Shown one piece after another: positions 7,620 to 48,987 of a stretch of DNA of 64,000 bases (positions are counted from its first letter, which is position 1; every line of letters starts with the position of its first letter). Made by a program: the position numbers and the translations under genes. The notes under the pieces were generated by a model. The model did not search any database. It was not told where the DNA came from and worked only from the letters and a program-made list of their open reading frames with translations. Source of the stretch: Eledone cirrhosa (taxonomy: Eukaryota); assembly GCA_964016885.1 (NCBI GenBank), contig OZ024742.1, positions 345,898,001-345,962,000 of the forward strand. The letters run 5' to 3'.

Positions 7620-7806
7620 TAATTGTTTCTACTATTAGCACAAGGCCAGCAATTATCTCAGTGCATTACTGGTACTTTATTTTACCGACCCCGTCAGGAT
7701 GTAGGGCAAATTTAACCTCGGCGGGATTTGAACTTAGACCATAAAGGGGCGTAAATCTAAGTTGGAAGGCATGGCGTTCGACCCTCTACCGGTACTGCCA
7801 ATTCAG
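7620..7806 (-). mobile_element. tRNA-derived SINE
   Basis: aattgtttctact..gcacaaggccagc...ctggtactttatttta...gggatttgaact...ctgccaa is the reverse complement of the main SINE. Confidence 0.85.
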
Positions 7807-7899
7807 CTCCGGCATACTGACATCTCCACCTATTCAGTGGCTTTCTAACCTGTCTCATATCAATCTGTCTACATTTCCTCACACGAGTCTGTCTACCCT

Positions 7900-16800: not shown

Positions 16801-19800
16801 GGGGGTTGTAATGTATCTGTCATTAAGTATATTTCACTCCCTCCCCTACCTTAAATAGGGGGTTGTAATGTATCTGTCATTAAGTATATTTCACTTCCTC
16901 CCCTACCTTACATAGGGGGTTGTAATGTATATGATATTAAGTATATTTCACTCCCTCCCCTGTCTTACATAGGGGGTTGTAATGTATCTGTCATTAAGTA
17001 TATTTCACTTCCTCCCCTACCTTACATAGGGGTTTGTAATGTATCTGTCATTAAGTATATTTCACTCCCTCCCCTACCTTACATAGGGGGTTGTAATGTA
17101 TCTGTCATTAAGTATATTTCACTCCCTCCCCTACCTTAAATAGGGGGTTGTAATGTATCTGTCATTAAGTATATTTCACTCCCTCCCCTACCTTAAATAG
17201 GGGGTTGTAATGTATCTGTCATTAAGTATATTTCACTCCCTCCCCTACCTTACATAGGGGGTTGTAATGTATCTGTCATTAAGTATATTTCACTCCCTCC
17301 CCTACCTTAAATAGGGGGTTGTAATGTATCTGTCATTAAGTATATTTCACTCCCTCCCCTACCTTACATAGGGGGTTGTAATGTATCTGTCATTAAGTAT
17401 ATTTCACTCCCTCCCCTACCTTAAATAGGGGGTTGTAATGTATCTGTCATTAAGTATATTTCACTTCCTCCCCTGTCTTACATAGGGGGTTGTAATGTAT
17501 CTGTAATTAAGTATATTTCACTCCCTCCCCTGTCTTACATAGGGGGTTGTAATGTATCTGTCATTAAGTATATTTCACTCCCTCCCCTACCTTACATAGG
17601 GGGTTGTAATATATCTGTCATTAAGTATATTTCACTTCCTCCCCTACCTTACATAGGGGGTTGTAATGTATCTGTCATTAAGTATATTTCACTTACTCCC
17701 GTGTCTTACATAGGGGGTTGTAATGTATCTGTCATTAAGTATATTTCACTCCCTCCCCTACCTTACATAGGGGGTTGTAATGTATCTGTCATTAAGCATA
17801 TTTCACTCCCTCCCCTACCTTACATAGGGGTTTGTAATGTATCTGTCTTTAAGTATATTTCACTCCCTCCCCTACCTTACATAGGGGGTTGTAATGTATC
17901 TGTCATTAAGTATATTTCACTTCCTCCCCTACCTTACATAGGGGGTTGTAATGTATATGTAATTAAGTATATTTCACTCCCTCCCCTACCTTACATAGGG
18001 GGTTGTAATGTATCTGTCATTAAGTATATTTCACTCCCTCCCCTACCTTTCATAGGGGGTTGTAATGTATCTGTCATTAGGTATATTTCACTTCCTCCCC
18101 TACCTTACATAGGGGGTTGTAATGTATCTGTCATTAAGTATATTTCACTTCCTCCTCTATCTTACATAGGGGGTTGTAATGTATCTGTCATTAAGTATAT
18201 TTCACTCCCTCCCCTACCTTACATAGGGGGTTGTGATGTATCTGTCATTAAGTATATTTCACTCTCTCCCCTACCTTACATAGGGGGTTGTAATGTATCT
18301 GTCATTAAGTATATTTCACTTCCTCCTCTATCTTACATAGGGGGTTGTAATGTATCTGTCATTAAGTATATTTCACTCTCTCCCCTACCTTACATAGGGG
18401 GTTGTAATGTATCTGTCATTAAGTATATTTCACTCTCTCCCCTACCTTCCATAGGGGGTTGAAATGTATCTGTCATAAAGTATATTTCACTCCCTCCCCT
18501 GCCTTACATAGGGGGTTGTAATGTATCTGTCATTAAGTATATTTCACTCCCTCCCCTACCTTAAATAGGGGGTTGTAATGTATCTGTCATTAAGTATATT
18601 TCACTCCCTCCCCTTCCTTACATAGGGGGTTGTAATTTATCTGTCATTAAGTATATTTCACTCTCTCCCCTACCTTCCATAGGGGTTGTAATGTATCTGT
18701 CATTAAGTATATTTCACTCCCTCCCCTACCTTACATAGGGGGTTGTAATGTATCTGTCATTAAGTATATTTCACTTACTCTCCTGTTTTACATAGGGGGT
18801 TGTAATGTATCTGTAATTAAGTATATTTCACTCCCTCCCCTACCTTTCATAGGGGGTTGTAATGTATCTGTCATTAAGTATATTTCACTCCTTCCCCTAC
18901 CTTACATAGGGGGTTGTAATGTATCTGTCTTTAAGTATATTTCACTCCCTCCCCTACCTTACATAGGGGGTTGTAATGTATCTGTCATTAAGTATATTTC
19001 ACTTCCTCCCCTACCTTCCATACGGGGTTGTAATGTATCTGTCATTAAGTATATTTCACTCCCTCCCCTACCTTAAATAGGGGGTTGTAATGTATCTGTC
19101 ATTAAGTATATTTCACTTCCTCCCCAGCCTTACATAGGGGGTTGTAATGTATCTGTCATTAAGTATATTTCACTCCCTCCCCTACCTTACATAGGGGGTT
19201 GTAATGTATCTGTCTTTAAGTATATTTCACTCCCTCCCCTACCTTACATAGGGGGTTGTAATGTATCTGTCATTAAGTATATTTCACTTCCTCCCCTACC
19301 TTCCATACGGGGTTGTAATGTATCTGTCATTAAGTATATTTCACTCCCTCCCCTACCTTACATAGGGGGTTGTAATGTATCTGTCATTAAGTATATTTCA
19401 CTTCCTCCCCTGTCGTACATAGAGGGTTGTAATGTATCTGTCATTAAGTATATTTCACTTCCTCCCCTGTCGTACATAGAGGGTTGTAATGTATCTGTCA
19501 TTAAGTATATTTCACTTCCTCCCCTGTCGTACATAGAGGGTTGTAATGTATCTGTCATTAAGTATATTTCACTTCCTCCCCTGTCGTACATAGGGGGTAG
19601 TAATGTATCTATCATTAAGTATATTTCACTTCCTCCCCTGTCGTACATAGAGGGTTGTAATGTATCTGTCATTAAGTATATTTCACTTCCTCCCCTGTCT
19701 TACGTAGGGGGTTGTAATGTATCTGTGATTAAGTATATTTCACTTCCTCCCCTGTCTTACATAGGGGGTTGTAATGTATCTGTCATTAAGTATATTTCAC

Positions 19801-22800
19801 TTCCTCCCCTACCTTACATGGGGGTTGTAATGTATCTGTCATTAAGTATATTTCACTTCCTCCCCTACCTTACATAGGGGGTTGTAATGTATCTGTCATT
19901 AAGTATATTTCACTTCCTCCCCTACCTTACATAGGGGGTTGTAATGTATCTGTCATTAAGTATATTTCACTTCCTCCCCTACCTTACATAGGGGGTTGTA
20001 ATGTATCTGTCATTAAGTATATTTCACTCCCTCCCCTGTCTTACATAGGGGTTGTAATGTATCTGTCATTAAGTATATTTCACTTCCTCCCCTACCTTAC
20101 ATAGGGGGTTGTAATGTATCTGTCATTAAGTATATTTCACTTCCTCCCCTACCTTACATAGGGGGTTGTAATGTATCTGTCATTAAGTATATTTCACTTC
20201 CTCCCCTACCTTACATAGAGGGTTGTAATGTATCTGTCATTAAGTATATTTCACTTCCTCCCCTGCCTTACATAGGGGGTTGTAATGTATATGTCATTAA
20301 GTATATTTCACTCCCTCCCCTACCTTACATAGGGGGTTGTAATGTATCTGTCATTAAGTATATTTCACTTCCTCCCCTACCTTACATAGAGGGTTGTAAT
20401 GTATCTGTCATTAAGTATATTTCACTTCCTCCCCTGCCTTACATAGGGGGTTGTAATGTATCTGTCATTAAGTATATTTCACTCCCTCCCCTACCTTACA
20501 TAGGGGGTTGTAATGTATCTGTCATTAAGTATATTTCACACCCTCCCCTACCTTACATAGGGGGTTGTAATGTATCTGTCATTAAGTATATTTCACTTCC
20601 TCCCCTGTCTTACGTAGGGGGTTGTAATGTATCTGTCATTAAGTATATTTCACTCCCTCCCCTGTTTTACATAGGGGTTGTAATGTATCTGTCATTAAGT
20701 ATATTTCACTCCCTCCCCTGTCTTACATAGGGGGTTGTAATGTATCTGTCATTAAGTATATATCACTTCCTCCCCTACCTTACATAGCGGGTTGTAATGT
20801 ATCTGTCATTAAGTATATTTCAATCCCTCCCCTACCTTACATAGGGGGCTGTAATGTATCTGTCATTAAGTATATTTCACTCCCTCCCCTACCTTACATA
20901 GGGGGTTGTAATGTATCTGTCATTAAGTATATTTCACTCCCTCCCCTACCTTACATAGGGGGTTGTAATGTATCTGTCATTAAGTATATTTCACTCCCTC
21001 CCCTACCTTACATAGGGGGTTGTAATGTATCTGTCATTAAGTATATTTCACTCCCTCCCCTACCTTACATAGGGGGTTGTAATGTATCTGTCATTAAGTA
21101 TATTTCACTCCCTCCCCTACCTTACATAGGGGGTTGTAATGTATCTGTCATTAAGTATATTTCACTCCCTCCCCTCCCTTACATAGGGGGTTGTAATGTA
21201 TCTGTCATTAAGTATATTTCACTCCCTCCCCTACCTTACATAGGGGGTTGTAATGTATCTGTCATTAAGTATATTTCACTCCCTCCCCTACCTTACATAG
21301 GGGGTTGTAATGTATCTGTCATTAAGTATATTTCACTTCCTCCCCTGTCTTACATAGGGGGTTGTAATGTATCTGTCATTAAGTATATTTCACTCCCTCC
21401 CCTACCTTACATAGGGGGTTGTAATGTATCTGTCATTAAGTATATATCACTTCCTCCCCTACCTTACATAGCGGGTTGTAATGTATCTGTCATTAAGTAT
21501 ATTTCAATCCCTCCCCTACCTTACATAGGGGGCTGTAATGTATCTGTCATTAAGTATATTTCACTCCCTCCCCTACCTTACATAGGGGGTTGTAATGTAT
21601 CTGTCATTAAGTATATTTCACTCCCTCCCCTACCTTACATAGGGGGTTGTAATGTATCTGTCATTAAGTATATTTCACTCCCTCCCCTACCTTACATAGG
21701 GGGTTGTAATGTATCTGTCATTAAGTATATTTCACTCCCTCCCCTACCTTACATAGGGGGTTGTAATGTATCTGTCATTAAGTATATTTCAATCCCTCCC
21801 CTACCTTACATAGGGGGCTGTAATGTATCTGTCATTAAGTATATTTCACTCCCTCCCCTACCTTACATAGGGGGTTGTAATGTATCTGTCATTAAGTATA
21901 TTTCACTCCCTCCCCTACCTTACATAGGGGGTTGTAATGTATCTGTCATTAAGTATATTTCACTTCCTCTCCTGTCTTACATAGGGGGTTGTAATGTATC
22001 TGTCATTAAGTATATTTCACTCCCTCCCCTACCTTACATAGGGGGTTGTAATGTATCTGTCATTAAGTATATTTCACTCCCTCTCCTACCTTACATAGGG
22101 GGTTGTAATGTATCTGTCATTAAGTATATTTCACTTCCTCCCCTGTCTTACATAGGGGGTTGTAATGTATCTGTCATTAAGTATATTTCACTCCCTCCCC
22201 TACCTTACATAGGGGGTTGTAATGTATCTGTCATTAAGTATATTTCACTCCCTCCCCTACCTTACATAGGGGGTTGTAATGTATCTGTCATTAAGTATAT
22301 TTCACTCCCTCCCCTACCTTACATAGGGGGTTGTAATGTATCTGTCATTAAGTATATTTCACTTCCTCCCCTGTCTTACATAGGGGGTTGTAATGTATCT
22401 GTCATTAAGTATATTTCACTCCCTCCCCTACCTTACATAGGGGGTTGTAATGTATCTGTCATTAAGTATATTTCACTCCCTCCCCTACCTTACATAGGGG
22501 GTTGTAATGTATCTGTCATTAAGTATATTTCACTCCCTCCCCTGTCTTACATAGGGGGTTTTAATGTATCTGTCATTAAGTATATTTCACTTCCTCCCCT
22601 GTCTTACATAGGGGGTTGTAATGTATCTGTCATTAAGTATATTTCACTTCCTCCCCTACCTTACATAGGGGTTGTAATGTATCTGTCATTAAGTATATTT
22701 CACTCCCTCCCCTACCTTACATAGGGGGTTGTAATGTATGTCATTAAGTATATTTCACTCCCTCCCCTGTCTTACATAGGGGGTTTTAATGTATCTGTCA

Positions 22801-23849
22801 TTAAGTATATTTCACTTCCTCCCCTACCTTACATAGGGGGTTGTAATGTATCTGTCATTAAGTATATTTCACTTCCTCCTCTACCTTACATAGGGGGTTG
22901 TAATGTATATGTCATTAAGTATATTTCACTTCCTCCCCTACCTTACATAGGGGGTTGTAATGTATCTGTCATTAAGTATATTTCACTCCCTCCCGGCCTT
23001 ACATAGGGGGTTTTAATGTATCTGTCATTAAGTATATTTCACTTCCTCCTCTACCTTACATAGGGGGTTGTAATGTATATGTCATTAAGTATATTTCACT
23101 CCCTCCCGGCCTTACATAGGGGGTTTTAATGTATCTGTCATTAAGTATATTTCACTTCCTCCCCTACCTTACATAGGGCGTTGTAATGTATCTGTCATTA
23201 AGTATATTTCACTTCCTCCTCTACCTTACATAGGGAGTTGTAATGTATATGTCATTAAGTATATTTCACTCCCTCCCGGCCTTACATAGGGGGTTTTAAT
23301 GTATCTGTCATTAAGTATATTTCACTTCCTCCCCTACCTTACATAGGGGGTTGTAATGTATCTGTCATTAAGTATATTTCACTCCCTCCCCTACCTTACA
23401 TAGGGGGTTGTAATGTATCTGTCATTAAGTATATTTCACTTCCTCCCCTACCTTACATAGGGGGTTGTAATGTATCTGTCATTAAGTATATTTCACTCCC
23501 TCCCCTACCTTACATAGGTGGTTTTAATGTATCTGTCATTAAGTATATTTCACTCCCTCCCCTACCTTAAATAGGGGGTTGTAATGTATCTGTCATTAAG
23601 TATATTTCACTTCCTCCCCTACCTTACATAGGGGGTTGTAATGTATCTGTCATTAAGTATATTTCACTCCCTCCCCTACCTTACATAGGGGGTTTTAATG
23701 TATCTGTCATTAAGTATATTTCACTCCCTCCCCTACCTTAAATAGGGGGTTGTAATGTATCTGTCATTAAGTATATTTCACTTCCTCCCCTACCTTACAT
23801 AGGGGGTTGTAATGTATCTGTCATTAAGTATATTTCACTCCCTCCCCTG
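7900..23849. repeat. 57-bp satellite array, ~280 copies (~16 kb)
   Basis: Consensus cttacatagggggttgtaatgtatctgtcattaagtatatttcactccctcccctac; 19-codon periodic pseudo-ORFs. Confidence 0.99.
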
Positions 23850-24106
23850 CCACGTGTGTAATCTATCTTTCTCATTTTCTCATATAGGCAAAAGCTAATT
23901 TTCTTCTATATCCCGAAAACATCTGGGAAAAGTATTTATATCCGTGTATATGCATACTCAGACACAAACACACATATATATATATATTATATACACACAC
24001 ATATGTTTGTGTATGTGGGTGTGTACGCGCGTGCGCAGGTGTGTGTGTGTTTCCGCGAAATTAAAATTCTAAAGTAAACTTCCAGTCCGGCATTCAGTTG
24101 TTTTTA

Positions 24107-25328: not shown

Positions 25329-25451
<123 letters not shown>

Positions 25452-25603
25452 GAAGAGAGAAGAAACATTTAGATATAATTAGTAATAAAATGTATCATAC
25501 CTAAACTGCTCCTAGATTCCTCGACTACGTAGTTTCGTGGCATAAACAAAAACAATACATCATAAAGATGTAGATGCGTTCTTGAGACTAGTAAAATGAG
25601 GTA

Positions 25604-25693
25604 TCCTCTTGATAAGTCGGCAGACCTCGCAAGGACTCTATATCTTTATGATGTATTGTTTTTGTTTATGCCACGAAACTACGTAGTCGAGGA
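25604..25693 (+). ncRNA. Type I hammerhead ribozyme, U3-A8 core
   Basis: tcctc-TTGATAA-gtcggca[long loop]tgccac-GAAA-ctacgtag-TC-gagga; palindromic stem III ACTACGTAGT; GUC site at 25688. Confidence 0.8.
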
Positions 25694-26196
25694 ATCTAGG
25701 AGCAGTTTAGATATGATACATTTTATTACTAATTATATCTAAATGTTTCTTCTCTCCTCATAATGTATTTTTAACTCTGATACTGGTTCAGTCTAGTTCA
25801 ACCGGATTGGTCTGTCCCAGTCATTCATTGAGCAACATCGGTGAAGTTTACACCCTTAACTCACGGTTGGGTGCGGATGCATTCATGTATATGTGTGTGT
25901 CCGCATGTATCTGTGTGTTTCTAAATATATTGTTAATAACTCCCTCTGGTCGAGCAATCTTTGAAGTGTGGGGACTGCTGGAAAGCTTCCATTACTCATA
26001 CTTCTCTCCTCCTTCACCACCTCTTCTACGGCTTCGATATAAATACCCCCACCGCCTCCGTGGTATTTTCTTCGGGGTTATAAGAGGCTTAGCTCTGTTT
26101 CTCGACCGTTATATCGCGTGACTATCTCCCCCTCCGCCTTTTGGGATTCTTTCTCACGTCGTGTAGACGCGTTCTTGAGACTAGTAAAATGAGGTA

Positions 26197-26286
26197 TTCT
26201 CTTGATAAGTCGGCAGACCTCGCAAGGACTCTATATCTTTATGATGTATTGTTTTTGTTTATGCCACGAAACTACGTAGTCGAGGA
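26197..26286 (+). ncRNA. Type I hammerhead ribozyme, U3-A8 core (second copy)
   Basis: ttctc-TTGATAA-gtcggca...tgccac-GAAA-ctacgtag-TC-gagga; GUC site at 26281. Confidence 0.8.
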
Positions 26287-26517
26287 ATCTAGGAGCAGTT
26301 TAGGTATGATACATTTTATTACTAATTATATCTAAATGTTTCTTCTCTCTTCATAATGTATTTTTAACTCTGATACTGGTTCAGTCTAGTTCAACCGGAT
26401 TGGTCTGTCCCAGTCATTCATTGAGCAACATCGGTGAAGTTGGCACCCTTAACTCACGGTTGGGTGCGGATGCATTCATGTATATGCGTGTGTCCGCATG
26501 TATCTGTGTGTTTCTAA

Positions 26518-26696
<179 letters not shown>

Positions 26697-27342
26697 AAAC
26701 AATGAAATAAAAATTCAAGTCATTAGAAATATACTTCACTGCTTTACGATCGTTTCTAGGTGATAATAATACATCGTACGCATATTTCGTTATCGGTCAA
26801 TGTAGGGTTAGTATATACAAAATATATATATACAAAATATCAAATAAGGAATATATTTACCTACACGTATATCATCATCCGTTGTCAAAACCAATGAAAA
26901 TTTTATTCAAAATCAATAGTAAATTGAGTTCTATGACCTTATTTGGAGGTAGCTGAAGAACAAATCAATCCAATGGATTTTTGCCATATGATGTTAAGAT
27001 GAAATATAACTCACTTTAGTTGAGGTCATTGCCCTTTGAAAGGAATGGTTGAATGGTATTAAAAATAGAATTACTATAAAGAACCTATGAAGAAAAGGGA
27101 TTGTTTTATTGATAGTGAAATGTAGATGGTGGAGTGAAGTTTAAAAAGGAATGTAAAAATTAAATGTTGAGTTGTGTTATATGGAATTTTTAGGTGAATA
27201 TAAATAAGTAAATATAAAATATACAGAGATAACTAGGATAAATATAGATAGGTAAAGTAATATATATATAAGGAAAAAAGATGAAATCGAAAATGCAACT
27301 GGAGTCTTATTTAAAAATATATATATATATTTATTTTTGTTC

Positions 27343-27378
27343 CTTTACCGGTTTCGCAGTTCTTCTGCTTTTCAAAAG
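27343..27378 (-). ncRNA. Minimal hammerhead motif, U3-A8 core
   Basis: ctt-TTGAAAA-gcag aagaa ctgc-GAAA-ccgg-TA-aag; short stem I. Confidence 0.6.
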
Positions 27379-27785
27379 TAGAGTTGAGATGGAGGGTCTG
27401 TGTTTTTTCTCACATCTGGTTGCTCTTTGAATGTTTTATATGGAAAAAAGTGGCTCGAAACGCCATGTTTTTAGAGAAGTAATTTGAATGGTTGGTGAAT
27501 AAGTATAATAAATTTCGCGCCAGTTCGCGTTACAAAGTTCTTCAAACAAAGGGGGGTGGGGGGCTCAGGTTGTTTTTTCATATATGAGTGAAGTTTGGTT
27601 GGTTGATGCAGTCACGTGAATAAGCACATCAGCTTTCGCGCCAGTTTGTTTGAATTTCTTTTTACTTAAAAAAAAGTGGCACACGAAGGCTTTATTTTTC
27701 GAGCCACTTTTTTCCATATAAAACAAGTAACATTCAAAGGCCAACCAGATGTGAGAAAAACCACAGACCCTCCATCTGAACTCTA

Positions 27786-27822
27786 CTTTTGAAAAGCAGA
27801 AGAACTGCGAAACCGGTAAAAG
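27786..27822 (+). ncRNA. Minimal hammerhead motif, U3-A8 core (other arm)
   Basis: ctt-TTGAAAA-gcagaagaactgc-GAAA-ccgg-TA-aaag; weak stem I. Confidence 0.55.
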
Positions 27823-27953
27823 AACCAAATAAATATATATATATTTTTTTTAAATAAGACTCCAGTTGCATTTTCGATTTCCTCTTTTTTCCTTATACTT
27901 TCACTCGTGTAGGACACCTCGGTTATTTTTCATTTTGTAAAAAAAACCTCACT

Positions 27954-28094
<141 letters not shown>

Positions 28095-28647: not shown

Positions 28648-29110
28648 ATAACGAAGGAAGTGTGGTAAGGAACCAGATGGACCATAACGCACCAGAGTAC
28701 TCAATACTTAGGGTAGTATAGTGGGTAACAAGAAAATGTTTAACCCCGACGGCAGAGCTCAAGCCGTTTCGAAACAACCAAATAGCCGCAAAAAATGCCT
28801 TCGAAGAATTTATCACCCCCAGAACTTCAGAATTCTATGTTACCGAGATAAATAAATATCTAACTAATTAGCAAAATATATACACATTCTAATGGTTTTT
28901 ATTTCGAACTATAAAGTTTATTCTGGATTCAGATATGTCGTTTTAAATTAATGTTTAAAGACCTACGTTAATTATAATTAACGTAGGTCTTTAAACAGCT
29001 ATTTCTGGACTAGAAATAGCTGTCGAAACGGCTTGAGCTCTGCCGTCGGGCTTCTGACTCTTTTCCTATTACTCACTCTACTACCCAAATTATCGAGTAC
29101 TCTTCTCCTA
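28648..29110. mobile_element. Fold-back element with the 3' half of a hammerhead (family shared with 50260-50462)
   Basis: cgacggcagagctcaagccgtttcga (28748) is inverted to tcgaaacggcttgagctctgccgtcg (29023); internal palindrome aaagacctacgttaattataattaacgtaggtcttt. Confidence 0.7.
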
Positions 29111-30720: not shown

Positions 30721-30858
30721 TATATACGTGAAACTTCTATTTAAATTGTTGGGATACAACAAGCAAATATTTTTTATAACTGATATAAAGCACTCAACAA
30801 ATAATTGGAGTAAAAATACGATATTAACAAATGGAAACTATATTTATAAAACCATATT

Positions 30859-30923
30859 TATTTCATTATACATATTTCAAGGACACCAAGTTAAATTATG
30901 GTATGCTTTCATCAGATGAAATA
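30859..30923 (-). ncRNA. Type I hammerhead ribozyme, canonical core
   Basis: tatttcat-CTGATGA-aag..cca[loop]tgg..ctt-GAAA-tatgta-TA-atgaaata; 8-bp stem I. Confidence 0.8.
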
Positions 30924-32419
30924 TAATATAGAGCAGTTTTATAAATAGATATTGACATACCATTAAAGAATGCAACCATTACTGTTGGAAGCTCCCGGAT
31001 AGTGGAGTTATATCTTTAATTACACTATTAGGTAAGTTAGTATTGGATATTTTTAAATAAGCCGTTGGGTTACGGAAAAAGAGAAGGAGAGAGAGAGAGA
31101 AGAACAAGAGAGAGAAAAAAGAAAGAGAAAAAAGTAAAAAGAAAAAAGAAAAGAGAGAGAGGAGAAAGAGAAAGGAGATAGAGCGAAAACTCTAAGTGAT
31201 AGGTTGTTGAGTTATCTTAACATTTGAGATGAAATGATAAATAAAATTAGAAATGTAAATAATCATGAATGGAAGATACATATATAATATGAGAATTTTA
31301 ACCATTGTTTAAATATGATGAAATGTTTAGTTAATCAATTAAAATATTGAGATCAATACATTAAAAATTTAGATGTATATATTAAGGAATCTATATATTA
31401 TTATTAAGACTATATATTATTAAAAATCTATATATTATTAGAAGAATATAACACATATACACACGCAAATATACATACATATAAATATATATATACACAC
31501 ATATAAACATATATACATATCTATCTACGTATATAATATATACATACAAAATATAAAGGATTTTTTAATTTAAGATATAGGAATCTTATAAAATCAGAGA
31601 AAATCATTTCTATGTAATATCAAAGCAGCGTGAAGGAAAATTACGTTATTTAGTTATATAAATGTTACAATTGTTAAGATATTAAAGGAAATTTTATGTT
31701 ATACACACTTTATGTTATTATACAAATTTTTTTTTATATAAGTTTCATGTTTAATAAGATTACCTGTTATGTAGTTATGACTGTTATTATATATGTTTAT
31801 TTGTCGCGAACATTAGGATAATCCTTATAATTAAGTGCAATCGAATTGTATGCATATACACATATATATATATACACAATTCCCACATATACATACATAG
31901 ACGTACCCACACAAATAGGTAGATATGCATCACATATATATATACATAGAGATACCCATACACACATAAATATATGTACATGTATATCAATACACACACA
32001 TATATATATATACACACATCATAGAGAGAAATAGATATATAAATACAGTACATAGTATAATTGAAGTACATAAAATACAAAAGAATTATATTACGATTTG
32101 GAAATATAATTATAAGCAATATAACTTTAAAACAATATAACTTAAAAAATATTATAGAATATTTCAAGTTATAATTTTAAAATAATAATATATTTAATAA
32201 ATTTATTATAAAATTTTCTACGTATATTTAACTTAATTTTATATCCATAAGAGAAAGAAAAAGAAACTTTCAAAAATAGGAGAAACTATCAAAAAATATT
32301 TTCCCTTTTTCAGAGCTTTCAATATATTTCTCTAGAAGAGTTTATTATATTTATTTATATTTAGGAAGAAAAGTTTTTTTTACTTGAGTGTATAAGCAGT
32401 CAAAAAATGAAGGAATCTA

Positions 32420-33200
32420 ATGATTCTAAATAAAATTAAATACATTGATAATAATAATATAACAACTAACCATAATCTTAAAAATTTTAACTATTTTAAC
32501 AATTTTAACAACTATAATAGAAAACCTTACAATAATTCCGAAAAGAAAAAAAGAAATAGGACTAGGAATATATTATGGTTCGCTCCTCCTTTCTCATTAA
32601 ATATTAAAACGCCTATTGCTAAACTATTTTTTAAAGCTCTTGACGAATGCTTCCCTAGAACACATAGATATTACTCAATTTTTAATAGCCATACTATCAA
32701 ATTAACTTATTCTTCCACCAAACATTTAGCGCAAAATATTAATAGCATTAATAATAGAAATTTAAAACCAAACCAAAATACCACTAATAACCCAAGTAAT
32801 ATCCAATTTGATAAATGTAACTGTAGAAATAAATCTAACTGTCCGTTAAATAACAATTGCTTAGCTAAAAATATAGTATATAATTGTAATGTAAAAACTA
32901 ATTTAAATTCATTTAATTATGTGGGATCCACTTCCACAGAGTTTAAATCCCGTTTCAATAATCTTAAAAATTATTTTACGAATCCAAACAAAAAATCTTC
33001 AACTTCTCTATCTAGCTTATTATGGGACCTCAAACTAAAGAACGTTGAATATTCGTTGATTTGGAATATTATTTCAAAAGCTACTCCTTTTAACTCCTCT
33101 TCAGAAAATTGTGATCTTTTATAGAGGAAATATTCTTTATATTAAAGACCAAAAATTCCCTGAACCTAAGGAACAATTTATTCATTTGCTGTAGACATAG
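32420..33200 (+). pseudogene. Penelope-like linker plus GIY-YIG endonuclease (frameshifted at 3' end, RT missing)
   Basis: RNILWFAPPFS, CNCRNKSNCPLNNNCL (CxCx5Cx5C), NIVY...YVGSTSTEFKSRF, CDL, then CCRH in another frame. Confidence 0.88.
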
Positions 33201-34760
33201 TTTGAACTCAACGTTTAAATATAAATTTAAAATGTAATATATAATTAATTAATTAATTCTATTAATATATTGAACCTATCGATAAATCATTAGATTCCTT
33301 CATTTTTTGACTGCTTTTACACTCAAGTAAAAAAAACTTTTCTCCCTAAATATAAATAAATATAATAGACTCTTCTAGAGAAATATACTGAAAGCTCTTA
33401 AAAAGGGAAAATATTTTTTGATAGTTTCTCCTATTTTCGAAAGTTTCTCTTTTGAAAGTTTCTTTTTCTTTCTCTTATGGATATAAAATACGTAGAAAAT
33501 GTTATACTAAATTTATTAAACATATTATTATTTTAAAATTATAACTTGAAATATTCTATAATATTTTTAAAGTTATATTGTTTTAAAGTTATATTGCTTA
33601 TAATTATATTTCCAAATCGTAATATAATTCTTTTGTATTTTATGTACTTCAATTATACTATGTACTGTATTTATATATCTATTTCTCTCTATGATGTGTG
33701 TATATATATATATGTGTGTGTATTGATATACATGTACATATATTTATGTGTGTATGGGTATCTCTATGTATATATATATGTGATGCATATCTACCTATTT
33801 GTGTGGGTACGTCTATGTATGTATATGTGGGAATTGTGTATATATATATGTGTGTATATGCATACAATTCGATTGCACTTAATTATAAGGATTATCCTAA
33901 TGTTCGCGACAAATAAACATATATAATAACAGTCATAACTACATAACAGGTAATCTTATTAAATATAAACTTATATAAAAAACATTTGTATAATAACATA
34001 AAGTGTGTATCTTAACAATTGTAACATTTATATAACTAAATAACGTAATTTTCCTTCACGCTGCTTTGATATTACATAGAAATGATTTTCTCTGATTTTA
34101 TAAGATTCCTATATCTTAAATTAAAAAATCCTTTATATTTTGTATGTATATATTATATACGTAGATAGATATGTATATATGTTTATACGTGTGTATATAT
34201 ATTTATATGTATGTATATTTGCGTGTGTATATGTGTTATATTCTTCTAATAATATATAGATTTTTAATAATATATAGTCTTAATAATAATATATAGATTT
34301 CTTAATATATAGATCTAAATTTTTAATGTATTGATCTCAATATTTTAATTGATTAACTAAACATTTCATCATATTTAAACAATGGTTAAAATTCTCATAT
34401 TATATATGAATCTTCTATTCATGATTATTTACATTTCTAATTTCATTTATTCATTTCATCTCAAATGTTAAGATAACTCAACAACCTATCACTTAGAGTT
34501 TTCGCTCTCTCTCTCCTTTCTCTTTCTCCTCTCTCTCTCTTCTTTTTCTTTTTTCTCTTTCTTTTTTCTCTCTATTGTTCTACTCTCTCTCTGTCTCTTT
34601 CTCTTTCTCCGTAACCCAACGGCTTATTTAAAAATATCCAATACTAACTTACCTAATAGTATAATTAAAGATATAACTCCACTATCCCGGAGCTTTCAAC
34701 AGTAATGGTTCCATTCTTTAACGGTATGTAAATATTTATTCATAAAACTGCTCTATATTA

Positions 34761-34825
34761 TATTTTATCTAATGAAAGCACACCATAATTTAACTTGGTG
34801 TCCTTGAAATATGTATAATGAAATA
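34761..34825 (+). ncRNA. Hammerhead copy with G5>A core mutation (probably inactive)
   Basis: tattttat-CTAATGA-aag...ctt-GAAA-tatgta-TA-atgaaata. Confidence 0.65.
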
Positions 34826-34924
34826 AATATGGTTTTATAAGTATAGTTTCCATTTGTTAATATCGTACATATATATATATATAAATTTATATGTGTGTGT
34901 GTCTGTGTGTGTGTATATATGTAT

Positions 34925-38026: not shown

Positions 38027-38056
<30 letters not shown>

Positions 38057-38060
<4 letters not shown>

Positions 38061-40569
38061 TATATTATATTTTGAGATTAAACTCTCAGTCGTTTACAAT
38101 TAATAAGCTCCAAGAAAGGGGCATTTCCGAGCAGTTAAATACATTAATATATATGATAAACACAAAATGTGTTTGCATTGTAACAGACAAAGTTAGCTAT
38201 CAATGAAATAAACTAATTAAAGTGAATACGATTTGTCTGTCTCGATATAAGTCAATAAAGACAAGCTTATATTGGCAAAGGCCGTGATTCCTGCACAAAT
38301 TTAAATTTCAAAATCCAAACCCGCTCCGTAGATGAATTTGAACTTCGAAACCCAAATATGTTTCGCAACGATGGTACATAAATTGAAAAATAAAGAGAAT
38401 CGAAATGGAATTGAAATAAAGAGTGAAATATCCAAATCTTCTGTGCTTATCGACAGGAATCCAGTAAAATTAGTACGTTTCACCATCAAAAATTTTGCAG
38501 GTCTGACTACACGTGTGTGTAGCCAGGCCAAACTAGCCGTCCCGCATTCCCGGTGCTAGAAATAACAGCCGTTTATACGGGATTAAAGATCAACTCTACA
38601 GTTAAGGAGCAATATACTTTTTATTTCAATTCCATTTCGATTCTCTTTATTTTTCAATTCATGTACCATCGTTGCGAAACATATTTGGGTTTCGAAGTTC
38701 AAATTCATCTACGGAGCGGGTTTGGATTTTGAAATTTAAATTTGTCCAGGAATCACGGCCTTTGCCAATATAAGCTTGTCTTTATGGACTTATATCGAGA
38801 CAGACAAATTGTATTCACTTTAATTAGTTTATTTCATTGATAGCTAACTTTGTCTGTTACAATGCAAACACATTTTATGTTTATCATATATATTAATGTA
38901 TTTAACTGCTCGGAAATGCCCCTTTCTTGGAGCTTATTAATTGTAAACGACTGAGAGTTTAATCTCAAAATATAATATAGTATATTGCTCCTTAACTGTA
39001 GAGCTGATCTTTAATCCTGCATAAACGGCTATTATTTCTACTACCGGGAATTCGGGACTGCTAGTTTGGCCTGGCTACACACACGTGTAGTCAGACCTGC
39101 AAAATTTTTGATGGTGAAATGTACTAATTTTACTGGATTCCTGTCGATAAGCACAGAAGATTTGGATATTTCACTTTTTATTTCAATTCCATTTCGATTC
39201 TCTTTATTTTTCAATTCATGTACCATCGTTGCGAAACATATTTGGGTTTCGAAGTTCAAATTCATCTACGGAGCGGGTTTGGATTTTGAAATTTAAATTT
39301 GTGCAGGAATCACGGCCTTTGCCAATATAAGCTTGTCTTTATGGACTTATATCGAGACAGACAAATTGTATTCACTTTAATTAGTTTATTTCATTGATAG
39401 CTAACTTTGTCTGTTACAATGCAAACACATTTTGTGTTTATCATATATATTAATGTATTTAACTGCTCGGAAATGCCCCTTTCTTGGAGCTTATTAATTG
39501 TAAACGACTGAGAGTTTAATCTCAAAATATAATATAGTATATTGCTCCTTAACTGTAGAGCTGATCTTTAATCCCGCATAAACGGCTGTTATTTCTAGCA
39601 CCGGGAATGCGGGACGGCTAGTTTGGCCTGGCTACACACACGTGTAGTTAGACCTGCATAATTTTTGATGGTGAAATGTACTAATTTTACTGGATTCCTG
39701 TCGATAAGCACAGAAGATTTGGATATTTCACTTTTTATTTCAATTCCATTTCGATTCTCTTTATTTTTCAATTCATGTACCATCGTTGCGAAACATATTT
39801 GGGTTTCGAAGTTCAAATTCATCTACGGAGCGGGTTTGGATTTTGAAATTTAAATTTGTCCAGGAATCACGGCCTTTGCCAATATAAGCTTGTCTTTATT
39901 GACTTATATCGAGACAGACAAATTGTATTCACTTTAATTAGTTTATTTCATTGATAGCTAACTTTGTCTGTTACAATGCAAACACGTTTTGTGTTTATCA
40001 TATATATTAATGTATTTAACTGCTCGGAAATGCCCCTTTCTTGGAGCTTATTAATTGTAAACGACTGAGAGTTTAATCTCAAAATATAATATAGTATATT
40101 GCTCCTTAACTGTAGAGCTGATCTTTAATCCCGCATAAACGGTTATTATTTCTACTACCGGGAATTCGGGACGGCTAGTTTGGCCTGGCTACACACACGT
40201 GTAGTCAGACCTGCAAAATTTTTGATGGTGAAATGTACTAATTTTACTGGATTCCTGTCGATAAGCACAGAAGATTTGGATATTTCACTTTTTATTTCAA
40301 TTCCATTTCGATTCTCTTTATTTTTCAATTCATGTACCATCGTTGCGAAACATATTTGGGTTTCGAAGTTCAAATTCATCTACGGAGCGGGTTTGGATTT
40401 TGAAATTTAAATTTGTCCAGGAATCACGGCCTTTGCCAATATAAGCTTGTCTTTATTGACTTATATCGAGACAGACAAATTGTATTCACTTTAATTAGTT
40501 TATTTCATTGATAGCTAACTTTGTCTGTTACAATGCAAACACGTTTTGTGTTTATCATATATATTAATG

Positions 40570-40572
<3 letters not shown>
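38057..40572. repeat. 557-bp unit: one forward monomer, then ~3.5 inverted head-to-tail copies, bounded by (TA)n
   Basis: Near-identical pseudo-ORFs start at 39265, 39822 and 40379 on the minus strand (period 557); mirror copy at 38332-38559; inversion junction at ~38616. Confidence 0.95.
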
Positions 40573-40600
<28 letters not shown>

Positions 40601-43893: not shown

Positions 43894-44093
43894 NNNNNNN
43901 NNNNNNNNNNNNNNNNNNNNNNNNNNNNNNNNNNNNNNNNNNNNNNNNNNNNNNNNNNNNNNNNNNNNNNNNNNNNNNNNNNNNNNNNNNNNNNNNNNNN
44001 NNNNNNNNNNNNNNNNNNNNNNNNNNNNNNNNNNNNNNNNNNNNNNNNNNNNNNNNNNNNNNNNNNNNNNNNNNNNNNNNNNNNNNNNNNNNN
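43894..44093. other. Assembly gap (200 N)
   Basis: Run of N. Confidence 1.
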
Positions 44094-44830: not shown

Positions 44831-45280
44831 TTATTGTTCATTTAGCTTGGGTTTGAATTTATCAATAAAATTCTTTTCTTTGATTTTTCTCTTGATTTCA
44901 CTTGGGCTGTGTAATTTGTAGAATGGGAATATTATAAATATTCCCTGACCACATGTTGCCAGGTGGCCGCTTAGGGGTATCTGACGGACATTTGGGTCTC
45001 TGATTTGTTGACGGTGTACCCGTGCACGTTCCGATAGTGCATTTCCAGTTTGACCGACATATAGTTCTTCACAATTCGGGCATTTAATGCAGTAAATTAG
45101 ATTTCTGCTTTTGCAGTTCATATTTGCATTTGGGAATATTTTTCCAGTCTTTGTTTTCATATATTGACCGGCGTGTATGGATTGACATGTGCCGCATCGA
45201 TTATCATTGCATTTAGATACAGTGAATGATTGGTCTTTGTTGTTAAGGTCAAACTTTGCTTTTGTTAGTAATTGCTTCAA
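44831..45280 (-). pseudogene. Penelope GIY-YIG endonuclease with Cys-rich linker
   Basis: CNDNRCGTC...NCKSRNLIYCIKCPNCEELYVGQTG...ERARVHR...E..FI..F.P.LN. Confidence 0.92.
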
Positions 45281-46330
45281 ATTTTAATTCTTTACTTTGA
45301 GCAATGATCGGTAGGTTTGCTTTGGCAGTGTTGAAGATATTCTGGTGACATGGGTTGTGTGTCATTATAAATGGTATGACCAGTTCTTGGTTTCTTCTTC
45401 TTTGGGTTGTTCTAAGCTGTTGTATAGGTATTTTTATAGCCCGCTGTATGCCATTTTCTATAAGTAGAGATGGGTATTTTTGTTTGAGCAAAAATTCTCT
45501 TAGTTCTGTTAGGCGTTTGTACCTGGTATTCGTATCTTCTACAATGGTACAAATTCTTCTGGCTAGGCAGTATGGGATGTTGCGTTTTGTATGAGGTGGA
45601 TGGCACGACTTAAAATTCAGATATTGATGGGTGTCTGTGTGTTTATAATATATATCCGTGGTAATGGTGGTGTCGTTTTTTATTATCATTATATCTAGGA
45701 ATGGTAATTTGGTCCTACTCATCTCTTTTGTGAATTGGAGAGATGGGTGTAGGTTATTCAGGAGGATATTGATCTCATCCAGAGTATCTAGAGATTCTGT
45801 CCAGATGATGAAACAGTCGTCAAGGTATCTCTTCCAAGATTTTTCAATGTACTTTCTAAAGTCAGTACTATATTTTTCCTCTATTTCTTGGTAGAGTTGT
45901 TGTTCTAAGTATCCCATTACAGAGTTCGCGTAAACGGGAGCAAACTTCGTTCCCATCGCTGTGTCTCTAATTTGGATGTAATTCTTTCCATTGAAGAAGA
46001 AAGTGTTGTTTTCCAGAATAAGTTTAACTGCGTCTAATATAAATGGCGCTGTGAATCTAATGGGAATCACTTCTCTATGTTTTCCCACCCAGTATTTAAC
46101 CGCCTTTATTCCTAAATCATGTGTAATGTTGGTGTAAAGGCTTACCACATCAAAACTGAGTAGAAGTGAATTCGTTTCCGTGGTTTTGGGAAGATGGGAC
46201 AGGAAGTCGATATCATCCCGGATAAAACTGGGTATGTGAATACATAGTGGTTTCAAAATAATGTCAACAAAATTGCTTAGACGGTGAGTGGGGCATGTTG
46301 GACCAGCTATAATAGGTCTAAGTTTTAAGT
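45249..46330 (-). pseudogene. Penelope reverse transcriptase core and thumb
   Basis: SFDVVSLYTNI, TAMGTKFAPVYAN, RYLDDCF, LPFLD, YYKHT...YL...SCHP. Confidence 0.95.
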
Positions 46331-46372
46331 CTTTTGGGTGTAATAATTTAATGTACTCACTGTTTTGTTCTC

Positions 46373-46966
46373 TTACTGCCAGTTGTATTTCTTTTGATTT
46401 GTGAACTTTCGGTAGGCCAACAGGTTGCTGGGTTTCGGCTCAAAATTGGTGATGTAGTCTCTTTCCTTATCAGTAAATGAGTTGTGGTATTTTGAAGCCA
46501 GGTTGTTGATCTTCTTCATGATGTTGTGGTCTATATTTGACGGTATTTCATGATAGAATGTTGTGTCTTTCAGTTGTTTCTCAACCAAATCCTTGTAGTA
46601 TTCAGTATCCATTATAACAACTGCACCCCCTTTATCTGCTTGTTTAATTATTATTGTTTTATCATTTTGTATACGTTTAAGTGCAGACATTTCTGATTTG
46701 GTAATGTTTGGCCTAACATTAGTATTATGTCTAAGAGGAAATTTAGACAGGATGTCAATGTATTGGTCGAGATAGATATTTCTTCCTTTTGGCGGAGGGA
46801 AATTTGATTTATTCTTTACTAGTGATTCATCACTCTCATTATTTTTATCAGCGAAGAATTCTACAAGACGTAATTTTCGACAGAATTCTTGGGTATCCTC
46901 CTTCAGTTCTTGGTGGTTGATTGTTGGATTCGGTGTGAATTTCAGTCCTTTTGACAGAATTTGCAT
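46373..46966 (-). pseudogene. Penelope ORF N-terminal region
   Basis: LSKGLKFTP, IIIKQADKGGAVVIMD. Confidence 0.9.
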
Positions 46967-47914
46967 TTCATCATTGTCAAGATCTCTTTTAGATAAATTA
47001 ATTATTTTAGGATCTACGTGTACAGCTGTTTTGGGTATGTTTCCTCCTGGAGTTTTTCTTTTTCCTGTTTTTGTTGTCCTGACGTTAAAAAATGAATTTT
47101 TCTCTGTTCAGGATTTATATTCCTGTTGGTGTTCGCTTGATGAACTTTTGGTCGTGATATTATATTTGGTTTCGTTATGTATTTTGTCCTATTTTTGGTA
47201 TTCTGTATATTATTTTTCTTCCTGTTAGCATTATTTTTAACAATCTGGGAAAATGACCTAGGTTTGCTTTCAGGTTTAGATCGTTTTTTCGTCCAGTTTC
47301 TTGTGGGCAATCTCTGTTGAGATCTTGAGAGTGATCTGGTTATTCTACGTTTTGTTTCCACATTCCTTGTTGGTAGTCTCTGTTGAGATCTTGAGAATGA
47401 TCTCCTGGTTTTACTACTTCTCATGGTCTGGTCAAAGGAATACCTATCGTGTTTGTGCTTTTTGTTCATGTTGTGTGCGATAGGGTGTTTTTGTAGAAAA
47501 AGCGAAGAGTTATTACCGTAGTTCTTCTTTGATTCAAGGTAAGGTGAGTGTTTGTGTTGGCACGTGTTCTGGCGTATGTTGTGTTGATGAGATTGTCCAC
47601 TTTTAATGCTTTTTCTCAGGGTTCCAGAGTCTTTACCGTAATTTGCAGCATATTCATCGAGAAATAATTGTTTCTGCTGCCATACCTTTCTTGATTTGTT
47701 TTCTTCTTTTGAGATATCTCTGATCCATAGTTCTCGTAGTTTTTTCAGCTATAATACCAGTCGTTAGCTTTGAAATTTCAACTTCAATTTGGTCATCAAT
47801 AGCTTCATATTACATTATTCTTAGTAAATTTAGTTATTATACCGCGGTTTCGGCCGACAAAGAAATCCACTGGTGTGGATGGGGTGGGGGTAGTGGGACG
47901 GGGTGTATTTTTGT

Positions 47915-47984
<70 letters not shown>

Positions 47985-48142
47985 TTGGTGCTCTGAAATA
48001 GCGATATATATATGAGTGTATATATAGTGTATTTTGCAATACACTGTATGCTTAATTAAAAGCATTTGGAAGATCTTACGCTATTGTTTTAGAGTAGTGA
48101 CAGTCTCACTTACTTTAAATTTTCAGTAAATAGGGGAGATAA

Positions 48143-48187
48143 AGCTGACAGAGCTCTGTTTCGTACTTTTTGGTACTTATCAAAGCT
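48143..48187 (-). ncRNA. Type I hammerhead ribozyme, U3-A8 core
   Basis: agct-TTGATAA-gtac caaaaa gtac-GAAA-cagagctctg-TC-agct; palindromic stem III. Confidence 0.85.
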
Positions 48188-48363
48188 AAGTACTCCACCT
48201 GTTTGCTGAAAATCATGAGTGTTTGTTTCTTATAGAATTCTAGTAATTCTAATTTTTAATTTCTGCTTGACCGGCAACCGCTCTGTATAATCAGTTCCTG
48301 ATTATTACTAGAATTCTATAAGAATCAAACATTCATGATTTTCAGCAAACAGGTGGAGTACTT

Positions 48364-48408
48364 AGCTTCGATAAGTACCAAAAGGTACGAAACAGAGCTC
48401 TGTCAGCT
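48364..48408 (+). ncRNA. Hammerhead copy in the other arm (U4>C)
   Basis: agct-TCGATAA-gtacc aaaa ggtac-GAAA-cagagctctg-TC-agct. Confidence 0.7.
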
Positions 48409-48534
48409 TTAGCTCCCCTGTTTGCTGAACATTTAAAGTAAGTGAGACTGTCACAACTCTAAAACAATAGCATAAGGTCTTCGAAATGCTTTTAATTAAG
48501 CATACAGTGTATTGCAAAATACACTATATATACA

Positions 48535-48633
<99 letters not shown>

Positions 48634-48987
48634 GCGTTCGGCCAACCCCCTGTATCGTGAAAAGAAAATCTTTTTCGGCGAAATTATTGGATTTTTCCAA
48701 ATTTAAAGGTTTCTTAGGAGCTTTCAATGTTTATTTTAGGTTTTGCCGTCTGAAGAGCTCAGGCTATCCTAATTGATAGCCCTCAGTGAAATACGAAGTT
48801 TTAAATAAACCTGAATCAATTGGATATGGCCGCCGATCTTTTATTGATATATAATGCTCTGTCTTGTACGAGTTATACAGGTCGTTGACCGCTTCTTTTT
48901 ATCTACTTCAAAACCGACAGACTATGGTATGATCCAGACATCCGTATTCTGTTAACCCCATACTCTCTCTCTATCTATCTATCTCTT

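What the first reader, a model, noticed from the sequence alone, without database searches (positions are those of the whole stretch)
48011..48540. Compensated U3-A8 hammerhead core recurring in unrelated families
Seen: UUGAUAA at 48143-48187 (-) and 25609/26202, and UUGAAAA at 27343/27786, in place of CUGANGA. Both positions always change together. Known: C3-G8 is a tertiary Watson-Crick pair and U3-A8 is a tolerated but uncommon natural variant. Inference: the covariation argues for selected function, and standard CUGANGA searches would miss these families. The 48143 copy is the cleanest, in a ~530-bp near-perfect hairpin island with back-to-back ribozymes on opposite strands.
Basis: partly seen in the sequence, partly recalled or inferred. 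Interest (0 to 1): 0.75.

Follow-up and report, generated by a model that had tools for sequence, protein, structure and literature searches.

The report
Swapped-core hammerheads in Penelope-mobilised repeats
This is one back-to-back insertion of a 320-base repeat that carries a predicted self-cutting hammerhead RNA with a known swapped core pair (U3-A8) and is likely copied by Penelope-type jumping-gene enzymes; the swap is fixed in thousands of copies of several repeat families of this animal genome, but the variant and the layout are already in print and cutting is untested.

Summary
Real, but of a known kind. All five cited U3-A8 type I hammerhead cores are present and are family consensus, not decay: 217 of 220 exact family-A copies, 99 of 100 listed in each of two unrelated families with 6,046 and 12,567 matches. 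Family A is a 320-bp tandem, non-coding retrozyme-like unit. Its U3-A8 arose once from C3-G8 relatives, with compensatory stem changes. The hairpin is an insertion footprint: two 5'-truncated arms, one with a tail (50 of 58 loci), as in Penelope-like elements. The two ribozymes lie on opposite strands, and the right one has a private U4C change. U3-A8 in Penelope hammerheads, its escape from standard descriptors and opposite-strand pairs were published in 2011-2014. This scan noted the same repeat type and footprint earlier on other DNA of this genome. Newer lead: U3-A8 was seen only with G10.1-C11.1 (6 of 6 families against 5 of 13), and that pair appears to have come first in family A. Cleavage is untested.

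The parts
47978..48547 (.). Whole family-A insertion: two 5'-truncated arms, 5' ends joined, 3' ends pointing outward into (TA)n
   Evidence: BLAST to the 320-bp unit; arms 231 of 244 complementary
47978..48247 (-). Left arm: unit positions 220-320 then 1-169 (position 1 = first base after the predicted cut)
47978..48003 (-). One-sided 26-nt tail (unit 144-169), absent from the right arm
   Evidence: tail described for Penelope-like elements in PMC8557442 and PMC11167929
48143..48187 (-). Type I hammerhead, core UUGAUAA (48183-48177), G10.1-C11.1, 12-nt palindromic stem III, predicted cut after C17 (48147)
   Evidence: Rfam HH9 26.3 bits, under its cut-off
48245..48547 (+). Right arm: unit positions 161-320 then 1-143; overlaps the left arm by 3 nt at the junction
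48364..48408 (+). Second hammerhead copy, core UCGAUAA with private U4C at 48369; likely impaired
   Evidence: U4C lowers activity in vitro per PMC3088659
47918..47977 (.). (TA)n target, left flank
   Evidence: sequence
48548..48631 (.). (TA)n target, right flank
   Evidence: sequence
25443..26525 (.). Family B insertion (591-bp unit; arms end at +80 and +247); U3-A8 hammerheads at 25604-25693 and 26197-26286 (+)
27265..27964 (.). Family C inverted pair (terminal repeat of an RT + GIY-YIG element); U3-A8 hammerheads at 27343-27378 (-) and 27786-27821 (+, stem I reduced to 2 pairs)

Best explanation
The island is one insertion of a 320-bp tandem, non-coding repeat whose type I hammerhead has the U3-A8 core as family consensus; the RNA is predicted to self-cleave as a dimer and is likely copied into (TA)n tracts by a Penelope-like RT-endonuclease. 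Shown: the unit, the core, its fixation in three unrelated families, one origin of U3-A8 from C3-G8 in family A, compensatory stem changes, and two fixed 3' ends with one per arm. Inferred steps: (1) tandem arrays are transcribed; (2) two hammerheads pair through the palindromic stem III and cut after C17, slowly or partly, with U3-A8 standing in for the C3-G8 tertiary pair; (3) uncut multimers or re-ligated circles are the template, because both arms run through the cut site; (4) the enzyme cuts both strands of a (TA)n tract and each end primes at a different one of two sites on the RNA (143 and 169-172); (5) the two truncated cDNAs are joined, which gives the hairpin. Selection on the fold acts on replicating master copies; single genomic copies such as the right arm decay.
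For: Core fixed in families A, B, C. 320-bp head-to-tail units. U3-A8 is one branch, support 99/96 and 100/99 with the core columns removed, nested among C3-G8 subfamilies and a 70%-identical C3-G8 sister. 97.4% of cells paired and 4 pairs changed on both sides in 12 subfamily rows; slid controls 10-40%. The active dimer is the minimum-energy dimer (-50.1 against 2 x -21.6 kcal/mol), while the active monomer is 4.8 kcal/mol above a misfold. One short and one long end in 50 of 58 A-superfamily, 28 of 33 B, 18 of 20 C and 10 of 10 sister-family inverted loci (binomial p 1.5e-10 for A). Family C lies about 1,025 nt behind a GIY-YIG domain in L309 and L123, and L309 holds a 472-aa RT + GIY-YIG frame. 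Same layout and two RT start sites in print.
Against: No cleavage was measured. Copy 5' ends show no clear peak at the predicted cut (family A: 1 start at +1; family B: 7 of 96 starts over 26 positions, with +2, +9 and +13 as high, hand tally). No coding partner of family A was found; the RT + GIY-YIG element next to the island is unrelated. In family C the predicted active dimer is 8.8 kcal/mol above the best dimer fold. In PMC11167929 the hammerhead was not needed for insertion in vitro and cut only with protein present. The covariation sample was chosen by patterns that fix part of the core, and rows are related.
Confidence: 0.8

Rival explanations
1. The hammerhead fold is kept for structure or protein binding, and U3-A8 motifs cut little or not at all in vivo.
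For: No clear cut-site peak in copy starts. Both arms span the cut site. Low in vitro activity of Penelope hammerheads and cleavage not needed for insertion in vitro.
Against: A buried 3-8 pair and the unpaired catalytic bases are kept across 70%-identical sister families. U3-A8 is reported active in vitro. Exact-start test gave 22 against 9 independent junctions at +1 against +5 (one control position only).
Confidence: 0.12
2. U3-A8 is AT-biased decay of C3-G8, with the two positions changing independently.
For: Both changes are transitions towards A/T in a genome of about 35% GC; single-site variants exist.
Against: No C3-G8 among 220 exact family-A matches. 94 of 100 and 93 of 100 listed superfamily motifs are Watson-Crick at 3-8 (hand tallies). 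Mixed states form no clade. Copies are young, mean identity 96.5%.
Confidence: 0.03
3. The island is a selected host element or MITE-like foldback in which the hairpin and the two opposite-strand ribozymes work together.
For: Near-perfect 244-bp arms; very stable hairpin, -375.6 kcal/mol.
Against: Inner breakpoints differ from locus to locus. The arms are unequal at the outer ends. The hairpin buries the ribozyme. The right core carries U4C.
Confidence: 0.05

Closest known systems
Minimal type I hammerheads of metazoan Penelope-like elements, U3-A8 variant of Schistosoma mansoni Cercyon (Cervera and de la Pena 2014, PMC4209133; parts 1-2 of 4 read)
   Same: Type I topology, palindromic stem III, predicted dimer, U3-A8 core missed by the standard descriptor, pairs on opposite strands a few hundred bases apart, mostly truncated copies.
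   Different: Here at least six U3-A8 families and about 18,800 exact matches in three of them; family A has a 12-nt stem III palindrome and no ORF; the swap can be placed on a tree.
Metazoan non-LTR retrozymes (Cervera and de la Pena 2020, PMC7229834, part 2 and passages; Li, Clavereau and Pollet 2026, 10.64898/2026.07.22.740005, part 1 and passages)
   Same: 150-450-bp AT-rich tandem units, one type I hammerhead per unit, no ORF, proposed dependence on Penelope-like elements.
   Different: Expression and circles not shown here; core is U3-A8; family B is 591 bp; 'U3-A8' and 'tail' have 0 occurrences in the 2026 main text.
Endonuclease-bearing Penelope-like elements, insertion layout and tail (Craig et al. 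2021, PMC8557442, passages; Frangieh et al. 2024, PMC11167929, parts 1-2 of 4)
   Same: Inverted 5'-truncated copy, tail often at one end only, (TA)n bias, two RT start sites, both DNA strands cut and extended.
   Different: Family A is non-coding; tails here are 26-29 nt (A), about 62 nt (C) and about 165 nt (B) against the 30-40 bp described.
Natural U3-A8 hammerheads (Perreault et al. 2011, PMC3088659, passages)
   Same: Same covarying core pair, stated to be active in vitro.
   Different: Rare examples there; a fifth of descriptor hits here (17 of 83 Watson-Crick cores).

Membership tests
Hammerhead ribozyme, type I | Core N3-UGA-N-N8-A / GAA / A15.1-U16.1-H17 with 3-8 Watson-Crick | tested here: met
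   right-arm copy departs at U4
Hammerhead ribozyme, type I | Three helices supported by compensatory changes | tested here: met
   (rows related; 1 of 13 rows misaligned and set aside)
Hammerhead ribozyme, type I | Rfam gathering score | tested here: not met
   HH9 26.3 and 17.0 bits against 52; no other hammerhead family listed for 47950-48950
Hammerhead ribozyme, type I | Self-cleavage after H17 | not testable with these tools
   indirect genomic test inconclusive
Penelope-type minimal hammerhead | Palindromic stem III favouring a dimer | tested here: met
   for A, B and the sister family; not for family C
Non-LTR retrozyme | Head-to-tail units of 150-450 bp, one type I hammerhead each, low GC | tested here: met
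   320-bp units in L034, L035, L038; family B is 591 bp, above the range
Non-LTR retrozyme | No coding capacity | tested here: met
   no frame of 120 aa or more over the island; unit is 320 bp
Non-LTR retrozyme | Expressed as linear and circular monomer RNA | not testable with these tools
   needs RNA data
Penelope-like element (autonomous) | RT + GIY-YIG ORF linked to the repeat | tested here: not met
   family A: none linked. Met for family C
Penelope-mobilised insertion | Inverted 5'-truncated copy, one-sided tail, microsatellite target | tested here: met

The most novel reading that the evidence does not exclude
This genome records an ordered, epistatic path in a ribozyme active site: U3-A8 is viable only on a G10.1-C11.1 background, so the stem II closing pair changed first and opened the way to the core swap, independently in several mobile-element families. 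U3-A8 was seen with G10.1-C11.1 in 6 of 6 families against 5 of 13 C3-G8 families (one-sided Fisher p 0.017 by hand, 0.041 without the two families that suggested the idea), and the family-A tree gives that order (support 83/90, not firm).
Probability: 0.35. Interest if true: 0.55.

Novelty: new member of a known kind. Interest (0 to 1): 0.3.

Why it matters
It shows that CUGANGA descriptors and Rfam cut-offs miss about a fifth of this genome's type I hammerheads, tens of thousands of copies. It supplies natural sister ribozymes with identical stems I and II but different cores, ready for a kinetic test of context dependence at the 3-8 pair. It adds insertion-footprint support for the proposed Penelope-retrozyme partnership. 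The variant, the host element class and the layout are all published, so the gain is in scale and testability.

Tried and rejected
2. Cut-site scars: family B exact-start patterns gave 25 matches at +1 (22 independent junctions) against 10 at +5 (9), p 0.015. A wider pattern showed no sharp peak: of 100 listed of 199, 4 decayed copies dropped, 7 start at +1, 10 at +2, 7 at +9, 8 at +13; 2.1 per position upstream and 5.3 downstream (hand tally). RT stalling at stem I would explain this as well. Inconclusive. 3. Link to the neighbouring RT + GIY-YIG element (44831-47750): no similarity to unit A; rejected. 4. C3-G8 with G10.1 and the family-A stem III palindrome: 0 matches; the C3-G8 relatives have other stem III sequences. 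5. Exact twin-priming fit (short arm stopping at the tail site) holds here (161 against 169) and in L036, but short arms start at scattered positions elsewhere (by eye); not taken as a rule. 6. First random scan required G10.1-C11.1 and gave 17 U3-A8 to 18 C3-G8; this overstated U3-A8 and was redone without the filter. 7. Whole-window Rfam was swamped by (TA)n matches to miRNA models. 8. Lunse et al. (RNA Biol 14:1499), Przybilski and Hammann 2007 and Hammann et al. 2012 could not be read; only titles or citing passages were seen. They, and supplements of the papers read (none opened), may already hold the G10.1 dependence or further U3-A8 families.

Full report
1. Observation. All five cited cores are in the sequence. 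The 48143-48187 (-) motif is a complete type I hammerhead: stem I of 4 pairs, core UUGAUAA, stem II closed by G10.1-C11.1, GAA, a 12-nt palindromic stem III and C17. Its mirror on the + strand (48364-48408) has UCGAUAA, a U4C change seen in 1 of 43 motifs from 30 loci. The arms are 231 of 244 complementary. Rfam gives only HH9 at 26.3 bits, under the cut-off of 52. The window lies in a 3.0-Gb genome; earlier scan notes call it a mollusc, which I did not test.

2. Family consensus or decay. Exact 24-letter patterns give 217 U3-A8, 2 C3-A8, 1 U3-G8 and 0 C3-G8 for family A (A3 or G3 with A8 not searched). Family B has 6,046 matches with positions 3 and 8 free, and 99 of the first 100 are U3-A8. 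Family C has 12,567, again 99 of 100. Reversed-pattern controls were 0. The three units share no BLAST hit below E 0.09. In 120 evenly spaced 10-kb stretches a descriptor found 66 C3-G8, 17 U3-A8 and 7 other states, against 3 control hits. The U3-A8 hits fall in 6 families (7 clusters, two of them family B).

3. How often the swap happened. Copies are not events. Family A has relatives: a 310-bp sister at 70% identity with CUGAUGA and double changes in stems I, II and III, and closer subfamilies found with a pattern that leaves 3, 7 and 8 free (2,656 matches; first 100 by hand: 49 U-A, 45 C-G, 6 mixed). With stem II held nearly fixed, the first 100 of 109 are 68 C-G, 25 U-A and 7 mixed (by hand). 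Trees built without columns 3, 7 and 8 put all U3-A8 rows on one branch (32 of 82 rows, 99/96; 32 of 77 rows, 100/99). These trees used subsets of 215 units, Watson-Crick states only, partly chosen by pattern. With the sister as outgroup, C3-G8 is ancestral and U3-A8 arose once. On 12 subfamily rows 97.4% of cells pair and 4 pairs change on both sides, including 3-8; slid partners pair at 10-40%. The rows are related, so shuffle counts are not probabilities.

4. What the island is. Family A is a 320-bp head-to-tail unit with one hammerhead each and no long frame. Copies are 5'-truncated at scattered points and end at unit position 143 or 169-172 after the predicted cut, usually joined to (TA)n. 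The island is two such arms with 5' ends joined: left 220-320 + 1-169, right 161-320 + 1-143. Of 58 inverted loci of the superfamily, 50 have one short and one tailed end, 3 short/short, 0 tail/tail and 5 other; 26.4 mixed loci are expected by chance. The same holds for B (28 of 33), C (18 of 20) and the sister (10 of 10). Craig et al. describe this layout and a one-sided 30-40-bp tail for Penelope-like elements (passages). Frangieh et al. show that a Penelope protein cuts and extends both strands and starts at two sites that define the tail. Family C is tied to a coding element: a 472-aa frame with GIY-YIG (above cut-off) and RVT_1 (E 1.4e-6, just under cut-off) in L309, and the hammerhead about 1,025 nt behind the endonuclease in L309 and L123. 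No coding partner was found for A or B among the loci held.

5. Mechanism. Folding predicts that the 48183 motif misfolds as a monomer (active form 4.8 kcal/mol above the minimum), whereas the active dimer is the best two-strand fold (-50.1 against -43.2). This fits dimer-dependent Penelope hammerheads. Family C does not show this (active dimer 8.8 kcal/mol above the best fold). The two island motifs are on opposite strands, so one transcript carries one sense copy, buried in a long hairpin. The pair is a footprint, not a device. Both arms run through the cut site, so the template was uncut or re-ligated RNA (inference). Priming of both target ends at two RNA sites and joining of the truncated cDNAs is inferred from the end asymmetry. 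That the 3-8 pair positions the 2'-OH of residue 8, and that G10.1 helps bind a metal ion, is recalled and comes from no call. The test for copies starting at the cut site was inconclusive.

6. A lead. All 17 U3-A8 hits of the random sample, 6 of 6 families, have G10.1-C11.1, against 5 of 13 C3-G8 families (one-sided Fisher p 0.017 by hand, 0.041 without family A and its sister). In family A the change from A10.1-U11.1 to G-C maps below the core swap: one change, support 83/90 once those columns are removed too, which is not firm. The idea was formed after seeing family A, the sample is small and families may be related. It fits the title of Przybilski and Hammann 2007, which I could not read. 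My paper searches for the core variant and for the footprint did not show this dependence, but they were not aimed at it.

7. Comparison and verdict. Perreault et al. 2011 reported natural U3-A8 covariation, already proven active in vitro (passages). Cervera and de la Pena 2014 reported U3-A8 in Penelope hammerheads, about 1,300 hits after changing the descriptor, and opposite-strand pairs 100-700 bp apart. Non-LTR retrozymes and their link to Penelope elements are described. Earlier notes of this scan reached the same reading on other DNA of this genome; one of them prompted the search for C3-G8 relatives and another the cut-site test. Verdict: observation confirmed, interpretation partly supported, new member of a known kind, interest 0.3.

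Noticed in passing
window 44831-47750 (-): Frameshifted Penelope-like element (RVT_1 E 1.3e-5, GIY-YIG E 3.6e-7, CX4CXXC linker, so likely Neptune type) abutting the island; a 3' half hammerhead with palindromic stem III lies near 47840-47875.
   Followed up: partly
window 30817-34867: Inverted-repeat element with a canonical C3-G8 hammerhead at 30915 (-) around a 237-aa frame at 32411-33124 that looks like a Penelope endonuclease end; no Pfam hit.
   Followed up: partly
window 25443-26525; L108-L122, L314-L316: Family B's two 3' ends are about 165 nt apart and family C's about 62 nt, longer than the 30-40 bp tail described.
   Followed up: partly
L098, L103, L160, L317-L325: The C3-G8 sister family (310 bp) forms long arrays, up to 10 units per arm, while family A mostly has 1-2; the shared tail motif has 25,020 matches.
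   Followed up: partly
L053:6452-9824: Another U3-A8 family as an inverted pair just upstream of Penelope-like RT and endonuclease matches.
   Followed up: no
window 38055-40575: About 557-bp tandem repeat with an inverted copy; no type I hammerhead found by the descriptor.
   Followed up: no
window 28740-29100: Foldback element with the 3' half of a hammerhead (long palindromic stem III, GUC site near 29048) and no matching core.
   Followed up: no
window 7740-23900: 57-bp satellite, 279 copies at about 95% identity.
   Followed up: no
window 48740-48810: CUGAAGA core followed by a hairpin and GAAA, possibly a decayed C3-G8 hammerhead; read by eye.
   Followed up: no
family C, L088, L126, L136, L166, L221, L308, L326: 5' starts cluster at -72 to -62 from the predicted cut, a possible fixed start or truncation hot spot.
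   Followed up: no
window 43894-44093: Run of N (assembly gap or withheld stretch).
   Followed up: no
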